Source of the DNA: Eledone cirrhosa
Taxonomy: Eukaryota
NCBI GenBank assembly: GCA_964016885.1
Contig: OZ024750.1
Coordinates: 31,558,001 to 31,622,000, forward strand
Reading direction: 5' to 3'
Length of the DNA stretch: 64,000 nt
The position numbers and the translations under genes were made by a program. Below are positions 2,037-57,224 of the stretch, one piece after another. How positions within the stretch are numbered: position 1 is the stretch's first letter; each line of letters opens with the position of its first letter. Under the pieces are notes generated by a model. That model had not been told where the DNA came from. It did no database searches and saw only the letters and a list, made by a program, of their open reading frames with translations.

Positions 2037-3303
2037 ATTCACTGCCTACTTGGCTTGGTTGCACGTCTCTGAACGGTTTCCAGGAGGTCAATGTTCTGAG
2101 CAAGATAGGTGTTCCAGACTGATGATGCGAATTCCAAGTTTGGTCGTACCATAGCTGTATACAGCTTTAAATAGATGGCTGGAGAGCGGCTAACAAAGGT
2201 CTTGCTGAATGATGCCAAGACACCCTCGGCCTTCTTGACAATCTTAGAGACATGCTTTGTCCAACGCAAATCGCTGCTGATAGTAATGCCCAGGTCACGT
2301 TCACAAGAGGACTTCTTGATATCAGTGTTGTGGAGGGAGTATGTGGACGCTGGATTTTTCCTCCCAAAATGCATGGTGGTACATTTGTCCACAGCCAGCT
2401 TCAGTTGCCAGTCTGTGATCCATTGCTGCATTGTGTCCAGGTCTGATTGTAGGAAAGAGTTGTAGATTTCAGGATCAGTCCTTTTGATTTCAAGGTACAG
2501 CTTGATGTCATCTGCATATTTCAGTACCGTGGCATTCTTTAACTTGGCATCTATGTCATTAATATATGCCACAAACAAAAGGGAACCAAGAACAGATCCC
2601 TGTGGTACACCAGATGACATCTCTTATGGTGAAGAATGCTGTCCTAGAACCGTGACTACCTCTTTTCGGCCGAGAATGAAGGATATCAGCCAGTTAAAAA
2701 GATCATCCCTCACACCCATTGCAGAGAGTTTTGCCATAAGTCTTTTCTGTGGCACAGAATTAAAAGCCTTAGCAAAGTCAAGGTAAACAACATCCACTCA
2801 TGAGCCGCTGTCAGTGATCCGGGTGATGTGTTCACTGAACTCGATAAGCTGATCACAGCAGCTGGAGTTAGGGATAAATCCAAACTGCGAGGGCCGGATG
2901 AGGTTGTGAGAGCTCCAGAAGTTCCAAAGTGTTTCTCTGACACAGGATTCCATCAGTTTGGCAATACAGCTAGTAAGACTGACTGGACGATAGTTGACAG
3001 GTGACATGCGGTTGCCCTTTTTGAACAGGGGAATGACACTGGCAATTTTCCACTGCTCCGGAGTAGCACCATTGTTGAGACAGTATTGAAAGAAGAAAGA
3101 AAGCTGGTGCAAAACGAAGTACCCGCCACGTTTGAGAAGCAGACACCATCAAGACCAGGGGAGGCATAGTTGCGCATATTCTTAAGGTGACGTCGCAACA
3201 TTGCAGGTGTAAATTCCATAGTTGTTATGGAATTTGATGTTAGAGATGGTGGAGATGTTACATTCTGATTTTCAACAGTAAAAATACTTGCATAGCACTC
3301 AGC
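2037..3303 (-). mobile_element. CR1/L2-group LINE ORF2 fragment (reverse transcriptase), frameshifted
   Basis: Overlapping ORFs give NYRPVSLTSCIAKLME, QFGF, YLDFAKAFNSV, GVPQGSVLG, YADDIKLY, ERDLGITISSDL and LYTAMVRPNLEFASSVW. Confidence 0.92.
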
Positions 3304-3314
3304 ATGCATCATCT

Positions 3315-3381
3315 TATTTTATCTGACGAGGACGTACTGTTGAAGATAGCTCAGTACCTCTGAAATATGTATAATAACATA
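3315..3381 (+). ncRNA. Minimal type I hammerhead motif, family A
   Basis: tattttat-CTGACGA(3323-3329)-ggacgtactg/cagtacctct-GAAA(3362-3365)-tatgt-ATA-ataacata. Abuts the upstream end of the CR1 fragment and is followed by (TA)n at about 3425. Confidence 0.75.
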
Positions 3382-4273: not shown

Positions 4274-4470
4274 AACGAAGGAATTGTGGTAAGGAACCAG
4301 ATGGACCATAACGCACCAAAGTACTCAATACTTAGGGTAGTAGAGTCTGTAATAGGAACGAATATGACGCCGACGGCAGAACTCAAGCCGTTTCGACGGC
4401 TATTTCTGGACTAAATAAGAATTTTTAGCCTGGTAAATAAATAGCCAGAGCTCTGCCGTAGGGGTCATAC
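4274..4470 (-). mobile_element. PLE-type terminus family C with partial hammerhead (stems II/III) and inverted end
   Basis: Homologous to 18363-18574, 22301-22484, 52365-52540 and 55459-55592. The - strand carries GAAACGGC...GCCGTC preceded by a long hairpin. (TA)n flanks. Confidence 0.7.
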
Positions 4471-4472
4471 TT

Positions 4473-10933: not shown

Positions 10934-11827
10934 CTACAGCCGCATGACCAGAGTAGACCCACTCACACGGGCGATTCTCGCCACATTGACCCACCTTTCA
11001 GCAAATGTACTGGGGGGGGGGGGGGGGGCAGCACTTCTCTGTCCACCCTCACCTTCCTTTCCAAGTGAACCTTGAAAAAGTTGATGAGGGATTGGCGGAA
11101 GAGAAACGTGTCTGTCTTCAGTCCTTTCAACCTCGTCCACCATACACCCTCTTTCGCTACTGCCACCAGACAGAGGAAAATTGCCTGCCCTTCCTGGCCA
11201 AAAGAAGGCGGCGGGTCGATCTTCACTATGGACTCGGCCTATAGCCGCATCCGTTCTACACGCGACAACAGCTGTTCAACATAGCTCCACAAGTCAGTAA
11301 TGCACGGACACTAGACGAGTGCGTGCAGAACGGTTTCGTCGCTCTGCGCGCATCTCGGGGAGGTCCGTCTGACAGCACTTCCGTGCCTGTAGAGTTTATC
11401 TCGAACCGGCAGTGCCCCCCAGTAGCACTGCCAAGCGAGGGATTTTTGGAAATTATCCATCGTCTCTGGCTCGAAAGTCCTCCGGTACAGACTGGTTAGT
11501 TCGACTTCGTTGACTCCCAGAGCCTCTCCGAGTGCGTCGTCGCACTTACCTTCCACTAATCCTCTATAGAACTCGAGAGTGGAAGTTCCACTGACCGCAT
11601 TGCCCGCCTGGTAGAGGGCAGTGAGTGCCTGGCAACATTCCAGATGCCAGTCACCCAGTCTTGGTCTCTTTTTGACCCAGAACTGCAGTTCGCGTGTCGG
11701 AAATCCTGGTCTCGCTGACGGCAATTACATCCATTTCTAGAGACCTGAGGTCGTTGAGCAGGTGACCCTGCTTCCAGGACGATCCCAGGCCTCGAACATG
11801 TAAACATCTTACTCTTAATACGGCCAT
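10934..11827 (-). pseudogene. LINE ORF2 remnant: first ~42 codons of APE endonuclease joined to the C-terminal Cys/His domain
   Basis: ATG 11827 gives MAVLRVRCLHVRGL...MDVIAVSETR (NVRGL/QET-type APE motifs). After about 11700: WQCYWGALPVRDKL...PRCAQSDETVLHALV...VWWTR...GSTLVMRL*. No RT motifs in between. Confidence 0.8.
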
Positions 11828-11859
11828 GTTGGCAGCTTAAAAAGAGAGAGAGGAAAGGT

Positions 11860-13824
11860 TTACTTACCTTCCGGGCTCTTGTGAAGGTCTGGTTGTTCGA
11901 CCTCCATAGTTGGTGGCGTTTCTTTTGGGAACCCCTTTAAAAGTCTTGAAGTGGGTTTTACGTTCGGGATTCCCACGTCCCGAGGAAAGCTGTCTCGTAT
12001 TTCTTTGTATAAACCGAGCGACATTCGCACCAGAACCAAATCTTCCGGCACGCGAAATGTGCTCGATTTAAAATTTTCCCCCTCTTTTGTATATTTTCAC
12101 TTCGTGCTACGAGGGCCATCAGTTCCTTGCTGGCCCTCCTGACGAGCACGAAGTTTTGTATGTTTTGTTGGTGTGATTTTATTTGTTTGCGTGGCTGTGG
12201 TGGTGATCGTTTTGGTGGTGTTGTTTCGGTTGTGTTTGCTGTGAGTGCGGTGTCTGTGGTTTCAGATGTTTGTGTGTATATTTGTTCTTGCGTCTGTTTA
12301 GGTTGTTTGCGTTTGGGGGATTCTGGTGGTGTTGATGTTGGTGTTATTGGAGAGATGTTTGCGTAGGTGGTGTCTGTGTTTTTTATTGTGGGTGATTTTG
12401 TGCTTTGTTGAGTTTTTTTGTTCTTTTTGGGTTTCCTTTTTTGTATTTTGGGGGATTTTGGTTTTCCCTCATCATCACTACTGGTAGATGAGGGGTCTGT
12501 GACTGTAAGTGTGTCTGTGTATATGTTTATGGTTTTATTGGTGTGTGTATTCTTTTTTTTGGGGGGAGGGGGGATTTGACAGCTTTCATCGTTTCCCCGC
12601 TGGGTGGTCAATGTTGGTGTTGGTCTTTCTATTGGTGTTGTTGTTGGTGGTTTTGCCGGTGCTGGAGTTGGTTGTGGTCCTCGCCCCGCCGTCGGCAGCA
12701 GTGGGGTCTTTCGACCCCTTGCCTCTTTCAACAGTTGGGGCAGAAGGCTCGCAAATGGGTTTTTCCCCACAAACAAAACAATGCGGCCATCTACCTTCGG
12801 TAATAATGTGAATGACCGTCCCATTCTGAAGGCGGATGTGGTCCGGGATAGTCTTCACATTCTCGGGCCTGATCTGGAAAAGGATCTCCAGGTCAACCCC
12901 GGACCAGTCCTCTCTGGCCGTTCTGGTCACTTCTATAGGGACGGTACCCTTCCCCTCTACAATCACACATCCCAGAAGCCACCACATGTCAAGTGCTGGT
13001 GGATTCTGGAAATGGGGAGACGGGCTGTTCTTTTTCCCATGTGGGAGGGGTACATTATGACCTTGCTGGTTTTGCAAGGAGTCATAGCGTGTTTCATAGC
13101 GAGGGCTTCTGACTTGAACAACACCGAAATGGTGCCGTACTGTCTGCCCCTCTCTGTGTATTCGGTGTCTTTTCTGATGCACCTCAGCGTGACTTCGACA
13201 TCTTCTTGTGGGATTAAAGCTGCCCTTTTGCTTTGTGCTGAGATGCATCTATAATGCACCATTCTGCGCTCCACTACCTCAATAACTTTTACCGGGACAG
13301 TTACGTTGGCCCAGGTTTGCTGTTGCTTGATGAGCTTCCATGCCTGGGCCAACTTTTCATCTTTGTTTGAGAGGTCCATGTTGAAGCATGGCCTCTTTTT
13401 TGCTGCTGCCGCCGCAAAAGTGTTCTTGTTTTCGTTGGGGATGTTGGTGTCTTTGTCGTTGTTCTTGTTGGTGTTGTTGTTATCACTGTCGCTCTTATCA
13501 TTGTTGTCTTTGTTGCCGACGTTGTTCTCGGTGCAGTTGTTATTGTTGCTGTTGGTGTTGTCGCTATTTGTTTTCATGTTAGTGGTGTTGATATTGTTGT
13601 TGTATTTGTCATTTTTTTTTGTTATCTGTATTTTCGTTGTCGCTGTTACTGTCATTTTTTTCAAAATTAGAGTTCTCATTGGTATCATTGGTGTCTTTGT
13701 TTACCTTGTTTGTGGTGGTGTTTGTGTTATCAATGTGTGTTAATTTCGCTGTAGCGCTCCTCTCAACTTCTACGTCGTTGTCGCACGACAGCAGACATAT
13801 CGCTGGGGGGCGTGGCTCAGCCAT
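11860..13824 (-). pseudogene. LINE ORF1 (gag-like), frameshifted
   Basis: Starts MAEPRPP (ATG 13824). Asn-rich N-terminus, central globular region, knuckle remnant CFVCGEK, and a Thr/Pro/Lys-rich tail, spread over several overlapping ORFs. Confidence 0.7.
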
Positions 13825-18072: not shown

Positions 18073-18362
<290 letters not shown>

Positions 18363-18366
<4 letters not shown>

Positions 18367-18573
18367 AACGAGTAGGACCCCGACGGCTGAGCTCAAGCCG
18401 TTTCGACGGCTAATTCTGGACTAAATTTAGATTTAGTCCAGAATTAGCCGTCGAAACGGCTTGAGCTCGGCCGTCGGGGTCCTACTCGTTCCCATTACCC
18501 ATTCTACTAACCTAAGTATTGAGTACTTTGGGGGTGTTATGGTCCACCTGGTTCCTTACCACATGTCCTTCGT

Positions 18574-20313: not shown

Positions 20314-20363
<50 letters not shown>

Positions 20364-20373
20364 AACCAGTAAG

Positions 20374-20467
20374 ACCCCGACAGCTGAGCTCAAGCCGTTT
20401 CAACGGCTAATTCTGGACTAAATGAAAATTTATCCTGGTATTTAAATAGCCGATCTTCTCAAGGGAT
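20374..20467 (-). ncRNA. Family C hammerhead-like motif, most complete copy (core degenerate)
   Basis: - strand: atccc-TTGAGAA (CUGANGA with 2 changes)-gatcggcta...tagccgtt-GAAA-cggct/agctg-TC-ggggt. Stems I, II and III all pair, and the triplet is GUC. Confidence 0.55.
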
Positions 20468-21556: not shown

Positions 21557-22300
21557 TATATATATATATATTATGTACTTGAATTAAGGTATTTCTATCT
21601 GGCTAAAAAATTATTGTCATTTTGCAAAAAAAAACACAGTAGTGTTGATCATATATTTTTTTAAATTATAATGTAATGCTCAGAAGTATTTTCTTAGAGC
21701 TTAATATTTGTAACTGACTACAAAATTGAAATATATATATATATATATATATATACTATACACACTCACACACACACCAATACACTCACACTTATACATT
21801 GGTAAACTTTTTAATTTATATACGTCCCAATGTAAATGAATACAATAATATTCAATCTATTTGAGAAACTAGTGTAAAGTATTGTTGAAGACGGAAAATA
21901 TTCAAATATAAATTTCTTGGGAACGACTATTATAGCGGTTTTGCGTTAGGACGCACACGACTCAATTATATAATGATACTTATAAATAACTATATGAGAG
22001 AGAGAGATAGAGAGAGAGAGAGAGACTAATAGGCATAGGGCGATTACTGGTCATACCCAAACAACCTTGTCCGGATTTGTGCTTCGGAGGGAAACTTTCT
22101 AGGTATAAATCTCATGGTCATTCGTGACCGAAGAAGGTCTTTACTCATTATTTACACACACACACACACCTACACCCCCCACACATATCATCATCATCAT
22201 CGTTTAACGTCCATTTTCCATGCTAGCATGGGTCTGGAGATATATATATATAAAGTGTAACGACATTGTTCGGCCATATATATATATATATATATATATA

Positions 22301-22482
22301 TAGGAACAAGTAAGACCCCGACGGCTGAGCTCAAGCCGTTTCGACGGCTAATTCAGGCTACGTCGAAACGGCTTGAGCTCAGCCGTCGGGGTCTTACTTG
22401 TTCCTATTACCCACTCTACTACCCTAAGTATTGAGTACTTTGGTGCGTTATGGTCCACCTGGTTCTTACCACTTTTCCTTCG

Positions 22483-24976: not shown

Positions 24977-25020
<44 letters not shown>

Positions 25021-25023
<3 letters not shown>

Positions 25024-25306
25024 GTGGCGTAGAAACACAATACAACAGGAGGAACATAATAGTACCACTGATGATGTTGTAGATGTGCAACGAAAGAACC
25101 TTGTTACACTATATATATGTGTTTAGATCTATTTTATATCTGTATTTTTGACCGTTGGTCAGTCAATGGTAAATATTGAGGACGAAATGCATTAACTGTA
25201 GGGATATAAATGATACAGAAGCGAAAACCAACCAAACAGTGAGTGTGTTCTGTTATTATTTCTGGCAATATTATTACAACAATATGACCCTCCCCAAGTA
25301 TAACAA
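25021..25306 (+). mobile_element. Solo 3' terminus of the PLE at 52651-54983, with hammerhead-like motif at 25062-25107
   Basis: Collinear with 54687-54983: tggcgtag...acaacaggaggaaca...CTGATGA-t-gttgta/tgcaac-GAAA...aaaaccaaccaaacagtgagtgtgttctg...atgaccctcccca-gtataacaa-(TA)n. Confidence 0.85.
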
Positions 25307-27433: not shown

Positions 27434-27492
<59 letters not shown>

Positions 27493-27497
<5 letters not shown>

Positions 27498-27631
27498 ATA
27501 CTTTGGGAGGGTCATGTTGCCAATAAGAAACACACGCACCAGTTGCTTTCACTTCAATTTATTATAATAAATTGAAGTGAAAGTAACTGGTGCGTGTGTT
27601 TCTTATTGGCAACATGACCCTCCCAAAGTAT

Positions 27632-27636
<5 letters not shown>
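27493..27636. mobile_element. 144-bp spacerless palindrome made of the family D 3' end
   Basis: 72-bp arms, centre 27564/27565, one mismatch. Both ends read atgaccctcccaaagtataacaa-(TA)n. Confidence 0.9.
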
Positions 27637-27685
<49 letters not shown>

Positions 27686-28149
27686 CGGTTTCAGCGCACG
27701 TTTTCAGATAAACAATCTTGCTAAACAAATTCAGAAATGAAATATATATATATATATATAATAGTAATAATAATAAATTTGAAGACTAAAATCCAAAGTG
27801 GGCTCGATAAGGATAAATATATATCAAATATATAAGAACCGTAGAGAAAATATTTATTAAAATAACAGATTAAATTTAAGCAAAGAATCGCTGCTTTCAC
27901 CCTTAACGGGATCTTCTGAAACTAACAAAATCAATCTGTGAACGCAGGAGTAAATATTTCAAAAAACGCTGCAACCGGAGGAAGACAGGAAGACGATACT
28001 TTGGTTCATGGAAACGTTCCCTGGCAAAGAACGGGAAAAGTAAATATATATATATATATATATACATATATATACATTCTTCGTTGCTAATATGATATAT
28101 ATATACACACACACACACACACATACACACACACACACATATATATATT

Positions 28150-37412: not shown

Positions 37413-37712
37413 TGCCTTTCCTTTCTTCTATCCTACGCCATTTTTCAAAAATGGCGTAGGATAGAAGAAAGGAAAGGCACAGAAACGAAGAAAGGAATCC
37501 CCAGTCACTGAAGAGGTCACAGAGTGTGTGACGAAAGGACTATGACTATATATATAAACAACTATCTGGTTGTGGAACCAACCAACCAACCAGAAATTTA
37601 TAAGTTTGTAGATTTGTAAATTTATAAATTTATAAATATATAATAAATTGAAGTGAAAGCAACTGGTGCGTGTGTTTCTTATTGGCAACATGACCCTCCC
37701 AAAGTATAACAA
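37413..37712 (+). mobile_element. Family D terminus with 33-bp perfect fold-back
   Basis: Arms 37413-37445 and 37447-37479. Ends atgaccctcccaaagtataacaa-(TA)n. Confidence 0.85.
37503..37547 (+). ncRNA. Minimal type I hammerhead motif, family D
   Basis: agtca-CTGAAGA-g-gtcaca(gagtg)tgtgac-GAAA-gga-CTA-tgact. Stems I and II are perfect. Confidence 0.85.
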
Positions 37713-37768
37713 TATATATATATGTATATATAAGGAACTGTTTCATTGTTTTATTCATTATTTGTTTA

Positions 37769-52366: not shown

Positions 52367-52534
52367 CAAAGGAATTGTGGTAAGCAAACTAGATGGACCA
52401 GAACGAACCAGAGTACTCACTACTTAGGGTAGTAGAGTGGGAAATAGAAAAAGTATGACCCCGACGGCTATTTCTGGACTGAATAGTCCAGAAATAGACG
52501 TCGAAACGGCTTGAGCTCTGCCGTCGGGGTCATA

Positions 52535-52540
<6 letters not shown>
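52365..52540. mobile_element. Family C terminus with fold-back
   Basis: aaagtatgaccccgacggc...ctggact-gaat-agtccag...GAAACGGC...GCCGTCggggtcatacttt. Confidence 0.75.
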
Positions 52541-52616
<76 letters not shown>

Positions 52617-52658
52617 CGGCGATGAATTAGTTTAGCGAGGTTTTTTATATGAAATCGT

Positions 52659-54458
52659 GTGTCAATGGTTATACGCCCCATAATCAAGATGTCCCCAGAT
52701 GTATGTGAAAGTACAGAGGACCTCCTCAGCAGAATCAGTGAGTGCAACAAAAACAGGAGCCTATCCAACTGCATAATAGGCAGCATGGATGTGGTGTCAC
52801 TGTACCCATCCATTAACATTGATTTTGCTGTGAAAAGATGTGTGGAGATGATCATTGAGAGTGAGGTGGAGTTCTGCGATGTCGACACAGACGAACTGGG
52901 CCTCCTACTTAGACTTACCTACGACACTGACTACCTAGACAGCCATGACCTTAGATGTTTCTGCCCTAGTAGACCTATAAGAGGTAGACCCCCCACCATA
53001 ACCTCAATGGCTAAAAAGACTCCCATAGGAAGGTGGATTGGGTGGACCAAAGCTATACGGACCCCCCAAAACACTGATCAGGTAAGAAAAATGGTCGCAC
53101 ATGCAATAGGGGCTAGTATCAAAACTACCCTAAAGGGCCACATATTTAAGTTCAATGAGAAAATCTACACCCAAAATGAGGGAGCAGCCATCGGCGTCAG
53201 CATAGCTGGCGATGTTGCCAACCTTTTCATGGTATGGTGGGAAAGGAGACTTAAAGATCTCCTTAATGAAAGCTCCATAGACCTCATCATGTACTCTCGT
53301 TATGTAGACGATATCAATATAGTTATAAGAACACCCCCACTAGAGAGCACTAACAAGTTTGATTTAGAACGTAGCACGATGGAAAGCATCCAGCAGATAG
53401 CTAATTCCATACACCAGTGTATAACTGTAACTATAGACTTCCCTTCCAAACACCCTAACAATAGACTACCTGTATTAGACACAGAACTCTGGATTAACAC
53501 TATAGACGAGAGAGCCCAAATTCTCCACTCACACTATGCTAAACCCATGGCCTCCAAATACCTGATACTCAAAAACTCAGCAATGTCCAGTAGTGCTAAG
53601 TTTAATATTCTGATCGCAGATTTGGTACGAGTGATGAAGAATGTGTCCAGCATGTGCGACCCAACAGAAATGGAAGGACACATCCAACACTTCATCAACC
53701 GCATGCAGTTCTCTGGCTACAACCAAAGAGACAGAGTCAGAGTATACGAAGGAGCCATGGAAAAGTATAAGACCCTCATAGAACTGGACATGAAAGGAAT
53801 TTGCCCACTATACAGGAGCAAATCATGGAATAGCTTAGATAGGGCTAGACATAAGATAGGGAAGGCCACATCATGGTACGACAACCAGAGATATCAGAGT
53901 GTCATGTTTGTGGACGCCACCCCTGGAGGGAAATTAGCTAACCAGTGTAGAAAGGCCCTGAGAAAGACCCACTTAAAAATAAAGGTGGTAGAAAAGCCAG
54001 GAACCACCATAAAATCCCTGATCAGCAAAACCTACCCTTTTAAGAAAACCCACTGTACCAATAGGAAATGTATCATATGTAAGGTGAACCCCCGGATAAA
54101 CTGTAAAACTAGAAACGTAGTCTATAGCATAAGATGTACAGAGGGTACTTGCAGAAACACGACAACAACATACATAGGTGAGACAGCTCGTAGCATAGGT
54201 GAAAGGATAGACCAACACTGGGGGGAACTAAAAGGACGAAAAAACGGGTCAGTACTATACGAACATGCTAGACAACATCATGACGGTAACATAGACAACA
54301 TAGAAATTAGAATAATATCTAAACATAGGAATGACCCAGCAGATAGGCAAATCAGAGAGGCCAGTGAAATAGAAATTAGAAGACCAAAGCTAAACAGAAA
54401 GAATGAGTGGAACAACAACAACACCCAAACAAACAACACTGACCTAAGAGAAGTATAA
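52659..54458 (+). CDS. PLE polyprotein (RT, Cys linker, GIY-YIG endonuclease), N-terminally truncated
   Basis: 599 open codons: SMDVVSLYP (motif A), QNEGAAIG (B'), RYVDD (C), LPVLD (E), CX4CX2CX7C linker, VVYSIRC...C...YIGET.R...R...H...H...H, RQIREA, LN. The start is a GTG just after a stop, so it is not the true N-terminus. Confidence 0.92.
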   Translation: MSMVIRPIIKMSPDVCESTEDLLSRISECNKNRSLSNCIIGSMDVVSLYPSINIDFAVKRCVEMIIESEVEFCDVDTDELGLLLRLTYDTDYLDSHDLRCFCPSRPIRGRPPTITSMAKKTPIGRWIGWTKAIRTPQNTDQVRKMVAHAIGASIKTTLKGHIFKFNEKIYTQNEGAAIGVSIAGDVANLFMVWWERRLKDLLNESSIDLIMYSRYVDDINIVIRTPPLESTNKFDLERSTMESIQQIANSIHQCITVTIDFPSKHPNNRLPVLDTELWINTIDERAQILHSHYAKPMASKYLILKNSAMSSSAKFNILIADLVRVMKNVSSMCDPTEMEGHIQHFINRMQFSGYNQRDRVRVYEGAMEKYKTLIELDMKGICPLYRSKSWNSLDRARHKIGKATSWYDNQRYQSVMFVDATPGGKLANQCRKALRKTHLKIKVVEKPGTTIKSLISKTYPFKKTHCTNRKCIICKVNPRINCKTRNVVYSIRCTEGTCRNTTTTYIGETARSIGERIDQHWGELKGRKNGSVLYEHARQHHDGNIDNIEIRIISKHRNDPADRQIREASEIEIRRPKLNRKNEWNNNNTQTNNTDLREV

Positions 54459-54732
54459 ATAAATAAGTAAATTAAATTAAATAAAATAAGATAAATAAAT
54501 ACATACACAAGCACATAAACACACACTAGTCACCCAGCAGACAACACTATACACACTAGTCACACATCACACATCACACATAACACTATACACACACGCA
54601 AACGCATGCGCAAAGAAGACAAAATAAAATAAGATAAACAAACAAGCAAATAAATAAATAAATATATAGACAGACTGAACAAAAAAAAAATGGCGTAGAC
54701 ATACAACACAACAGGAGGAACAATGAATATAA

Positions 54733-54776
54733 CACCACTGACGATGTTGCAGATGTGCAACGAAAGATTTATGTAA
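54733..54776 (+). ncRNA. Hammerhead-like motif in PLE 3' region
   Basis: CTGACGA(54738-54744)-t-gttgca(gatg)tgcaac-GAAA(54762-54765)-gat-TTA-tg. Stem I is weak (2 bp adjacent to the core). Confidence 0.6.
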
Positions 54777-54978
54777 ACTATATATATATGTGTTTGTCTA
54801 TATTGTATCTGTACTATTTTTGACCGCCGGTCAGTCAATGGCAACATTGAGGACCGAGTAAGCCAGATCGCAGATATATATATATAAAAGACAGCAAGAA
54901 GCGAAAACCAACCAAACAGTGAGTGTGTTCTGTTATTAATTCTGGCAATATTACGCAAATATGACCCTCCCCAAATAT

Positions 54979-55022
<44 letters not shown>

Positions 55023-55407: not shown

Positions 55408-55458
<51 letters not shown>

Positions 55459-55462
<4 letters not shown>

Positions 55463-55592
55463 AAAAAGTGTGACCCCGATTGAGAAGCTCAAGCCGTATC
55501 GACGGCTATTTCAGTCCAGAAATAGCCGTCGAAACGGCTTGAACACTGCCGTCGGGGTTACACTTTTTCCTATTTACCACTCTACTACCCTA
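55459..55592. mobile_element. Family C terminus with fold-back, degenerate
   Basis: taggaaaaagtgtgaccccg...gacggctattt/aaatagccgtc...cggggttacactttttccta. Confidence 0.7.
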
Positions 55593-55844: not shown

Positions 55845-55903
<59 letters not shown>

Positions 55904-56049
55904 ATACTTTGGGAGAGTCATGTTTCCAATAAGAAACACACGCACCACATGCTTTCACTTCAATTTATTATAATAAATTTATAAATTTAGGAATTTATAA
56001 ATTTCCGGTTGGTTGGTTGGTTCAACAACCAGATGGTTGTTTATATATT

Positions 56050-56092
56050 GTCAAAGTTCTTTCGTCACACATTCTGTGACCTCTTCAGTGAC
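56050..56092 (-). ncRNA. Minimal type I hammerhead motif, family D
   Basis: - strand: gtca-CTGAAGA-g-gtcaca/tgtgac-GAAA-gaa-CTT-tgac. Confidence 0.85.
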
Positions 56093-56188
56093 TGGGTATT
56101 CTTTGTTTTTTGTGCCTCTCCTTTGTTCTGTCCTATGGCGTAGGACAGAACAAAGGAGAGGCACAAAAAACAAAGAAAATAATACCCA

Positions 56189-56231
56189 GTCACTGATGAG
56201 GTCACAGAATGTGTGACGAAAGAACTTTGAC
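56189..56231 (+). ncRNA. Minimal type I hammerhead motif, family D
   Basis: gtca-CTGATGA-g-gtcaca(gaatg)tgtgac-GAAA-gaa-CTT-tgac. Confidence 0.85.
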
Positions 56232-57224
56232 AATATATAAACAACCATCTGTTTGTGGAATCAACCAACCAGCCGGAAATTTATAAATTCCTAAATTTAT
56301 AAATTTATTATAATAAATTGAACTGAAAGCAACTGGTGCGTGTGTTTCTTATTGGCAACATGACCCTCCCAAAGTATAACAATATCGGTGTCAACACACG
56401 TTTTCAGATAAAGAATCTTGCTAAACAAATTCAGAAACGATATATATATTTATTAAAATAACAGATAAAAGTTTATTACTATTTATATATATATATAACT
56501 TATCTAATTTTGACAACGTTTTAAATGATATTAGAATACTTCTTTGAAATTGAATATAATCGATTGTAGAGAAAATCCTAAATATCTCACGGGAAAACGC
56601 CTACGGAAATCAATATAAATAAAAATAGAATGAACGTATTGGACACAACGTTATTTTTATCGAGTTTACTGAGTCGTGATTTCATATTGTAAAAATATAA
56701 AAACAGGAAATTATTATATTCATATTGTAAAATGTTCTGTTTTTTAATTTTCTTATTCTTCATTTTGTGTATGACCCTATAGCAGGTGGGTATATTTCTA
56801 CATCTTTTTGGGGGGGAGTTGTGTTTCACATCCTATGTTCATTATTGGTTCATTGAAGTCTGCGATGCGATATACGAATGACGAATGAATCTCAGTCGGG
56901 TTCGACGTCAGCGTTCCGGTTCCTCTATGAAGAGAACGGGCTGCTCAGAAAATTAATACAAGTGGCTGAGCCTTTCACTGACACGTGCACCCACTACTTA
57001 ATGCTCAGTGAGAATCAGTGTGACATAGAATGTAACAATAGTAGCCCTAGGGACAGCCTTATACGATGGATCTCCACGCAATTTCTGACTACTCAATTTC
57101 CCTCACAATGGGTCAGGCCGAGGCTATGTTAAATGACATTTGCAGAAGATGCCACGCAGTAGTATATAACCCGGGTCCTAGTGGTTGTGAATGAAATAAC
57201 TTAATTATTCTCCAAGTATCAGTC

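What the first reader, a model, noticed from the sequence alone, without database searches (positions are those of the whole stretch)
25021..25306. Independent solo termini all start at the same AAAATGGCG site
Seen: the solo units at 25021 (aaagtggcgtag), 37447 (aaaaatggcgtagg) and 56135 (atggcgtagg) begin, or fold back, at the motif found at 54687-54695 (AAAATGGCG) in the coding element. This holds although they belong to two diverged subfamilies. Established: AANATGGCG is the YY1-type motif found just downstream of start sites in internal retroelement promoters. Inference: the 3' repeat has its own start site, and the resulting ~250-290-nt ribozyme-containing RNA is mobilised as a defined non-autonomous unit rather than arising by random truncation.
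Basis: partly seen in the sequence, partly recalled or inferred. Interest (0 to 1): 0.75.

Follow-up and report, generated by a model that had tools for sequence, protein, structure and literature searches.

The report
Penelope copies ending at transcript start
These short repeats are cut-down ends of ordinary Penelope-type jumping genes; about one copy in ten begins just before a shared short motif, far more often than at neighbouring places, likely because the element's capped RNA starts there and the copying enzyme runs off its end.

Summary
The three cited copies do begin or fold back at ATGGCG. A fourth short copy in the window (27490-27639) does not. All are terminal repeats (pLTRs) of protein-coding Penelope-like families with 4.1-4.4-kb tandem units; D' has such units too. 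Genome-wide the clustering is real: 1,082 fold-back junctions at the motif against 28 and 1 at control sites, and 459 (TA)n-abutting starts against 38 and 13. But 'all' is wrong: only 26 of 224 sampled copy arms start there. At the sharpest point in family D (window 54672), 9 of 11 non-templated junction bases are G, the known mark of a copied RNA cap. This supports a start site 0-20 nt before a YY1-type motif. No separate non-autonomous lineage was found: short and long copies share haplotypes, and templates extend about 55 nt past the unit. Best reading: reverse transcription primes internally near the start of the ORF and runs off the capped 5' end of uncut sense RNA. No RNA data were available. 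The scan noted a similar pattern earlier for another family on other DNA (e1-9525717).

The parts
52617..52663 (-). Inverted 'tail' (47 nt of the ORF start that follows the pLTR) at the 5' junction of the coding copy
   Evidence: Matches the sequence behind the pLTR in many other copies and the first bases of the tandem unit
52662..54458 (+). 5'-truncated ORF of family D: RT core (YVDD), CX4CxxC linker, GIY-YIG endonuclease
   Evidence: relatives at 32-67% identity
54603..54612 (.). Palindromic CGCATGCGCA, NRF1-like (motif identity recalled), upstream of the inferred start; also present in D' and in the 25021 subfamily
54672..54672 (+). Inferred main transcription start of family D (A of AGACTGAAC), 18 nt before the ATG of ATGGCG
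   Evidence: 36 of 37 genome-wide hits of a boundary pattern are true ends here; non-templated base is G in 9 of 11
54687..54695 (+). AAAATGGCG, YY1-type motif; its ATG is followed by GCG TAG (two-codon upstream ORF)
   Evidence: reverse complement fits CGCCATNTT (PMC1904287)
54738..54772 (+). Minimal type I hammerhead motif of D (CTGACGA, stem II, GAAA); stem I weak
   Evidence: not found by Rfam among the 150 rows shown
54961..54986 (+). Start codon and first codons of the ORF (MTLPKYNN), tail-less 3' end joined to (AT)n
   Evidence: A 1208-codon open frame starts at this ATG in a fetched tandem unit
25020..25306 (+). Solo pLTR of an older D-related subfamily (F), single arm, starts at -4, no tail
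   Evidence: 79% identical to 54686-54990; subfamily has 1,464 exact 3'-end matches and long copies with the upstream promoter region
37413..37445 (-). 33-nt inverted copy of the 5' end of the adjacent solo pLTR (snap-back arm)
   Evidence: 100% over 33 nt
37447..37715 (+). Solo pLTR of D' (E1 type); hammerhead core 37508-37536; ORF ATG at 37690
   Evidence: nearest tree neighbours include a long copy
55896..56135 (-). Inverted, tail-less D' pLTR arm starting at +6
   Evidence: 94% to the direct arm
56135..56440 (+). Direct D' pLTR arm starting at the ATG of the motif, with ~55-nt tail (56386-56440)
   Evidence: tail equals the start of the D' tandem unit
27490..27639 (.). Fourth short D' insertion, fold-back pair centred near 27564 (about +175), not at the motif

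Best explanation
The short units are terminal repeats (pLTRs) of protein-coding Penelope-like retrotransposons, and an excess of them begins 0-20 nt before a YY1-type motif, likely because the element's capped RNA starts there and the reverse transcriptase, priming internally near the start of the ORF, would run off that 5' end. Shown: coding tandem units, fixed 3' ends and tail inside the ORF start, the excess of boundaries, the extra G, shared haplotypes of short and long copies. Inferred: (1) RNA polymerase II starts in the 3' region of the upstream tandem copy, with NRF1/ETS-like sites upstream and the YY1-type site downstream. (2) The more-than-unit RNA holds the priming region twice, about 300 nt from the cap and again behind the ORF. 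(3) Priming at the rear copy gives ordinary, randomly 5'-truncated inserts; priming at the front copy gives a 270-370-nt run-off cDNA, sometimes with a C opposite the cap. (4) With no template left, the enzyme jumps to its own or a sister cDNA, giving head-to-head pairs, or joins the (TA)n target. (5) The hammerhead lies inside these copies, so their template was uncut. The products lack the upstream promoter sites and are probably dead ends.
For: Tandem units of 4147 nt (D) and 4151 nt (D') whose frame starts at ATGACCC near the pLTR 3' end; a 1208-codon open frame in one unit. Fold-backs at the motif: 1,082 vs 28 and 1; 41 of 48 examined are D'. (TA)4-abutting starts: 459 vs 38 and 13. Ends per 100 nt at risk in the zone vs downstream and upstream: D 0.38 vs 0.15 and 0.09; D' 0.59 vs 0.19 and 0.13; F 2.4 vs 0.44 and 0. 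At D position 54672, 36 of 37 pattern hits are true ends; the non-templated base is G in 9 of 11 vs 2 of 9 at two control sites (Fisher p 0.02). Untemplated G marks capped LINE-1 and SVA RNA (PMC4859970). YY1 motifs act just downstream of start sites in human promoters (10.1101/2023.06.27.546584). Penelope's start site lies in the pLTR (PMC2377424). A purified PLE protein primes internally at two ORF sites that define the tail and uses uncut RNA (PMC11167929). Short and long D' copies need 32 label changes on a tree vs 34.6 for shuffles. Start-bounded D arms carry no more rare variants than long arms (0.40 in 53 arms vs 0.36 in 87).
Against: No RNA evidence of the start site or cap was obtained. 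The G count is small: of the 9, two rows are one duplicated event, and two (L252, L376) could take the G from the target or the partner arm. In D' the cap G cannot be told from a templated C in most fold-backs; only 3 of 34 listed (TA)-abutting loci show a clear extra G (by eye), and the automatic tally was not clean. At single-base resolution D is only about 2-5-fold above controls. The share of start-bounded arms varies widely (8 of 70 D arms reaching the zone; 13 of 21 in one young D' haplotype), which a short secondary source would explain as well. Start-bounded D arms rarely have an ORF-bearing partner (3 of 36 by eye), so genomic data do not show that the template was the long RNA.
Confidence: 0.65

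Rival explanations
1. Same start site, different template: 5'-truncated copies that keep promoter, pLTR and tail make short capped transcripts (at least 330-370 nt) that are mobilised in trans.
For: Such promoter-bearing truncated copies are common. Both arms of an insertion tend to be start-bounded together. One young D' haplotype has 13 of 30 arms in the zone, against 6 of 27 for the rest of its subfamily sample (by eye). pLTR sequences suffice for mobilisation in trans in a rotifer PLE (PMC3846280).
Against: That haplotype also has 4.3-4.4-kb tandem units. Start-bounded D arms show no excess of rare variants as aged sources would give. No short-only lineage survived testing.
Confidence: 0.2
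2. The pile-up is a sequence effect: the enzyme stalls or slips on the A-run, the CAGACTG palindrome or the CA repeat, and no RNA end lies there.
For: D has an A-run of 6 to over 20 nt before ATGGCG, and many D fold-backs join at CAG/CTG. D' boundaries fall on a CA repeat that offers microhomology with (TA)n.
Against: D' and F have no long A-run, yet show the effect. A control site behind an equally CA-rich stretch has 13 vs 459 starts and 1 vs 1,082 fold-backs. D ends lie 5' of the A-run, not in it. Stalling does not predict an extra G.
Confidence: 0.08
3. The solos are a self-propagating retrozyme- or SINE-like family, driven by the YY1 site alone and processed by the ribozyme.
For: They carry hammerhead motifs. 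Animal retrozymes are related to pLTRs (10.64898/2026.07.22.740005). One tree clade held 24 short and no long rows.
Against: That clade was a sampling effect: 21 of 30 unselected members continue upstream and some lie in 4423-nt tandems. No short tandem arrays were seen among the listed places (by eye). Boundaries lie about 90 nt upstream of the predicted cut site, where only 13 true ends were found for the D' variant tested.
Confidence: 0.05
4. Solos arise after insertion, by recombination or deletion between repeats.
For: Proposed for some solo pLTRs in a rotifer (PMC3846280).
Against: The tandem unit is continuous across the motif, so there is no repeat edge to recombine at. Head-to-head pairs with one tail (32 of 48) and extra G are insertion-time marks.
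Confidence: 0.02

Closest known systems
Endonuclease-bearing Penelope-like elements with C-terminal GIY-YIG (Neptune/Nematis-type linker; PMC8557442)
   Same: One ORF with RT then GIY-YIG, CX2-5CxxC linker, tandem and inverted copies, one-sided tail, (TA)n targets, frequent 5' truncation, hammerhead in the pLTR.
   Different: Tail about 55 nt rather than 30-40. A sharp excess of boundaries at an inferred start site is not described in the passages read. Clade not placed by a tree here.
Drosophila virilis Penelope promoter (PMC2377424) and Chlamys-3_cRei (PMC8557442)
   Same: Start site inside the pLTR; the 3' region of the upstream copy drives the downstream copy.
   Different: Penelope uses an internal Inr/DPE promoter. 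Here the candidate motifs are YY1-type downstream and NRF1/ETS-like upstream, so copies starting at the start site lose part of the promoter.
Poseidon of Anolis, internal RT initiation (PMC11167929)
   Same: Two 3' ends inside the ORF start that define the tail; AT-rich targets; uncut RNA as template.
   Different: That work is in vitro on short templates and does not discuss solo pLTRs as run-off products or cap copying (parts 1-2 of 4 read).
LINE-1 5' end: YY1 site and untemplated G (PMC4859970)
   Same: YY1-type motif about 15-20 nt after the start; extra G at insertions that reach the RNA 5' end.
   Different: LINE-1 primes at a poly(A) 3' end, so copies reaching the cap are full length; here they are the shortest defined class.
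Animal non-LTR retrozymes (10.64898/2026.07.22.740005; PMC4209133)
   Same: Short, non-coding, hammerhead-bearing, pLTR-related sequence.
   Different: No short tandem arrays, no separate lineage, and ends not at the ribozyme cut site.

Membership tests
EN+ Penelope-like element (C-terminal GIY-YIG) | Single ORF with RT followed by GIY-YIG endonuclease | tested here: met
   RVT_1 E 8.8e-5, below the curated cut-off; YVDD and YSIRC..C..YIG motifs and a 1208-codon frame; a relative passes Pfam GIY-YIG
EN+ Penelope-like element (C-terminal GIY-YIG) | [quoted passage not shown] | tested here: met
   YSIRCTEGTCRNTTTTYIG; candidate histidines seen downstream in the translation
EN+ Penelope-like element (C-terminal GIY-YIG) | Tandem, partial-tandem and inverted copies forming pLTRs, with a one-sided tail | tested here: met
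   32 of 48 fold-backs have one tailed and one tail-less arm
EN+ Penelope-like element (C-terminal GIY-YIG) | Hammerhead motif in the pLTR | tested here: inconclusive
   Core boxes and stem II in all four copies; D' copies fold stems I and II, D only stem II, 25021 neither (z-scores not significant); Rfam gave no hammerhead among 150 rows shown of 235; cleavage not testable
Neptune/Nematis clades | CX2-5CxxC linker before the endonuclease | tested here: met
   CTNRKCIIC
Neptune/Nematis clades | Placement in the clade by RT phylogeny | not tested
   No named reference set was in hand
Hydra clade | No CCHH, DKT motif, CxCX5C linker | tested here: not met
   Cysteine pair present, DKS in both units, CX4CxxC linker (definitions)
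Non-LTR retrozyme / non-autonomous family | Own lineage without ORF-bearing members | tested here: not met
Non-LTR retrozyme / non-autonomous family | Short tandem units, each with a hammerhead | tested here: not met
   Same-strand spacings in the listed places are mostly 2.9-4.4 kb; no array of short units seen (first 100 places each)
Non-LTR retrozyme / non-autonomous family | RNA ends set by ribozyme cleavage | tested here: inconclusive
   13 true ends of 30 hits at the predicted cut site of one D' variant, no matched control; the main peak is about 90 nt upstream
YY1-positioned polymerase II start (LINE-1-like) | AANATGGCG shortly downstream of the 5' ends | tested here: met
   Boundaries at -20..0 in three subfamilies; A/G variation at the N position; consensus
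YY1-positioned polymerase II start (LINE-1-like) | Capped RNA 5' ends | tested here: inconclusive
   Indirect only: extra G in 9 of 11 D junctions
YY1-positioned polymerase II start (LINE-1-like) | YY1 binds and sets the start | not testable with these tools
   Needs EMSA, ChIP or a reporter

The most novel reading that the evidence does not exclude
Penelope-like elements make a strong-stop-like product that integrates by itself: the enzyme primes inside a capped, uncut, linear sense RNA and copies the cap. Truncated copies that keep the promoter then act as secondary sources of a capped 330-370-nt RNA, a polymerase II SINE-like class born repeatedly from the pLTR, and a direct route from pLTRs to retrozymes.
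Probability: 0.2. Interest if true: 0.7.

Novelty: new member of a known kind. Interest (0 to 1): 0.45.

Why it matters
How Penelope-like elements are copied is open. Papers read here propose an antisense template (PMC3846280), a ribozyme-cut circular template (PMC4209133) or uncut RNA primed internally (PMC11167929, in vitro). More than a thousand natural insertions that stop at one inferred start site, keep the hammerhead whole and sometimes carry an extra G favour a capped, linear, uncut sense template in the animal. They also map the start site from DNA alone, offer an origin for solo pLTRs without recombination, and give exact coordinates for CAGE and in-vitro tests. The elements themselves are ordinary members of a known class.

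Tried and rejected
Rfam and the repeat finder were swamped by microsatellites and hairpins and gave nothing on the ribozyme. No RNA holder listed. Laying four contig sets on the pLTR showed the family in them, but the tool skipped 54587-54690 as repeat, so it says nothing on the boundary. A short-only clade of 24 rows looked like a non-autonomous lineage and was rejected by an unselected sample; a young haplotype was then tested and also has tandem units. An automatic tally of junction bases in D' fold-backs was confounded by a subfamily missing from the reference panel and by CA repeats, and is not used as support. The idea that the second arm is always copied from the first cDNA fails for unequal pairs: the tail is on the shorter arm in 13 and on the longer in 9 of 31 pairs; it still fits arms such as 37413-37445. 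The automatic 'ends' label for the upstream control (20 of 30) was wrong for 15 rows that continue in a sister subfamily; 5 of 30 was counted by eye. Literature searches gave no paper on start-bounded solo pLTRs, cap G in PLEs or YY1 in PLEs; subscription papers are not covered. The LINE-1 YY1 paper (PMC506791) is not held; only its title was seen. Supplements of the cited papers were not read and could hold boundary data.

Full report
What the window holds. The three cited copies are at the stated places. They share the 3' end ATGACCCTCC..TATAAC followed by (AT)n with the element at 52617-54986, whose 601-codon frame holds an RT core, a CX4CxxC linker and a GIY-YIG domain with two cysteines. 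Relative to the A of ATGGCG, the 25020 copy starts at -4, the 37447 copy at -4 (with a 33-nt inverted arm), and the 56135 pair at 0 and +6. A fourth short insertion of the D' family at 27490-27639 folds back near +175, so 'all' fails inside the window.

The families are coding elements. Exact 3'-end patterns occur 3,512 times for D, 21,247 times for D' and 1,464 times for the 25021 subfamily, here called F. D and D' both form head-to-tail units, of 4147 and 4151 nt, 72% identical over the coding part. The frame starts at ATGACCC, about 25 nt before the common 3' end; one fetched D unit has an uninterrupted 1208 codons. The short unit is therefore the 5' leader plus the first codons, that is the pLTR. 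About 55 further nt of the ORF form the one-sided tail known from PLEs (PMC8557442, passages and section 10 read). The best protein hit is named by its source from an octopus (67%). Although the pLTRs of D and D' hardly align, both keep ATGGCGTAG and, upstream of it, CGCATGCGCA; D' also has CCGGATGT. That these are NRF1- and ETS-like sites is recalled, not taken from a call. AANATGGCG is the reverse complement of the YY1 consensus CGCCATNTT (PMC1904287, passages), and the recurrent A/G variation falls on the N.

Sample of boundaries. I took the first listed places of each 3'-end pattern: 100 of 100 listed for D, 94 of 100 for D' (6 not fetched), and the first 30 for F, all on contig C1. Each arm was extended upstream against long copies. 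After normalising the D A-run and counting five D' arms as continuing (judged by eye), 8 of 100 D arms and 10 of 94 D' arms end at -25..+5, and 8 of 30 F arms at -33..+12. Ends per 100 nt at risk are 0.38, 0.59 and 2.4 in the zone, against 0.15, 0.19 and 0.44 downstream and 0.09, 0.13 and 0 upstream. Of 107 short arms, 26 start in the zone. Arms of one insertion are not independent, so these ratios are descriptive.

Genome-wide counts. Head-to-head junctions with at most 30 nt between the two ATGGCGTAG arms number 1,082; 41 of 48 examined are D'. The same test at +49 gives 28, of which 4 look unrelated by eye, and at -54 gives 1. D' copies with (TA)4 within 22 nt upstream number 459 on the reverse strand (forward counts are inflated by overlapping matches), against 38 at +49 and 13 at -54, which has an equally CA-rich upstream stretch. 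In 48 fold-backs the arm starts spread over -17..0. The clustering is thus real, 12-fold or more for these junction classes, and about 20 nt wide.

Is it a start site? In D, a pattern for copies that break off at (C)AGACTGAAC, window 54671-54672, gave 37 hits, 36 of them true ends; two pairs of rows look like duplicated events. Control sites gave 47 hits (5 true ends of 30 examined, by eye) and 43 hits (11-12 of 30). Where the base before the A is not the templated C, it is G in 9 of 11 cases, against 2 of 9 in controls (Fisher p 0.02); both control Gs come from the partner arm. By eye six events have a G that neither partner nor target explains, two are ambiguous, and two partner arms show it as well. 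Untemplated G is the accepted mark of a copied cap in LINE-1 and SVA (PMC4859970, passages). YY1 motifs activate initiation immediately upstream of themselves in human promoters (10.1101/2023.06.27.546584, passages). In D' the evidence is weaker: 3 of 34 listed (TA)-abutting loci show a clear extra G (by eye), and in CA repeats a cap G cannot be told from the partner's templated C. No RNA test was possible. A start site in the pLTR is known for Penelope (PMC2377424, parts 2-3 of 4) and for Chlamys-3.

Is there a non-autonomous unit? On a tree of 131 D' pLTRs (86 short, 45 long; short rows were enriched by my searches), the label needs 32 changes against a shuffled mean of 34.6, with 94 of 500 shuffles as low. 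One clade held 24 short rows only. An unselected search for it gave 2,092 matches; 21 of 30 examined continue upstream, 9 end at about -16..-3, and three lie in a 4423-nt tandem. A younger haplotype (111 matches) also has 4.3-4.4-kb tandems; 13 of 30 examined arms end at -14..+1, 8 further upstream and 9 downstream, about six of the 30 being diverged chance matches. Start-bounded D arms carry 0.40 rare variants each (53 arms) against 0.36 in long arms (87). Of 48 fold-backs, 32 have one tailed and one tail-less arm, 3 have no tail, and in 13 an end was not found. The template therefore ran at least 55 nt past the unit, and the 3' edge is a priming site, not an RNA end. At the predicted ribozyme cut of one D' variant only 13 true ends were found among 30 hits, without a matched control.

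Mechanism. A purified Poseidon protein primes at two sites inside the ORF that define the tail, and uses uncut RNA (PMC11167929, parts 1-2 of 4). A transcript that starts in the upstream pLTR and reads into the next unit holds this region twice. Priming at the rear copy explains the scattered truncations; priming at the front copy would run off at the cap after 270-370 nt and give exactly the start-bounded class. This step is inferred. The data do not separate it from short transcripts of promoter-bearing truncated copies: start-bounded D arms seldom have an ORF-bearing partner (3 of 36 by eye), and the share of start-bounded arms differs between haplotypes. In unequal pairs the tail is on the shorter arm in 13 and on the longer in 9 of 31, so both arms can be primed on RNA; 5'-only arms such as 37413-37445 point to snap-back copying as well.

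Relation to what is known. Minimal hammerheads in pLTRs, single scattered motifs and a circular-template proposal are in PMC4209133 (parts 1-2 of 4). Palindromic 5' junctions, solo pLTRs ascribed to recombination or deletion, and an antisense-template proposal are in PMC3846280 (passages). Retrozymes as pLTR derivatives are in 10.64898/2026.07.22.740005 (parts 1-3 of 5). An octopus repeat survey lists active PLE families without such detail (PMC13282606, passages). Searches gave no paper on start-bounded solos, cap G or YY1 in PLEs.

Verdict. The start-site inference is probably right; the separate non-autonomous unit is not supported. The elements are new members of a known class. The value lies in fossil evidence for a capped, uncut, sense template and in exact, testable coordinates. 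Interest 0.45.

Noticed in passing
window 54690-54698, 37451-37459, 56135-56143: The ATG inside the YY1-type motif is followed by GCG TAG in D, F and D', a two-codon upstream ORF. The stop is not part of the YY1 consensus and may be kept to neutralise this first ATG.
   Followed up: no
window 4278-4472, 18359-18570, 20356-20422, 22297-22480, 52368-52541, 55455-55592: Another family of (TA)n-embedded, head-to-head short elements with a one-sided extension like a PLE tail; no coding partner found in the window.
   Followed up: partly
window 27640-27721: The tail of the 27490-27639 pair is split from its arm by an (AT)n run inside AATAT, as if the microsatellite expanded or was inserted at the proximal end site.
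   Followed up: no
L091 unit 720-1200; L093 unit 710-1030: Both ORFs carry long asparagine-rich low-complexity inserts before the RT, as reported for rotifer Penelope families.
   Followed up: no
window 54856-54862 and 54919-54924; 37667-37672: Possible splice donors in the leader (GTAAG; GTGAGT in D, GTGCGT at the matching place in D'); Penelope has a 5' leader intron.
   Followed up: no
window 20021, 29084, 29291, 34428, 42808, 46294, 60969: A different dispersed repeat carrying ATGGCGTCCGACCCTCTACCGATACT, seven copies in the window, probably a SINE.
   Followed up: no
window 880, 1577, 3323, 17065, 35320, 36099, 36407, 38694, 60750: About nine further CTGATGA..GAAA hammerhead-like motifs of another repeat family with a long stem II.
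   Followed up: no
window 2039-3318 (minus) and 11311-13700 (minus): Fragments of other retroelements: an RT fragment (Pfam RVT_1, E 5e-15) and a decayed LINE-like element with long open frames.
   Followed up: partly
L424/L425, L380, L230, L368, L391: Some start-bounded junctions hold short tandem re-copies of the first 10-20 nt, suggesting repeated template jumps at the RNA 5' end.
   Followed up: no
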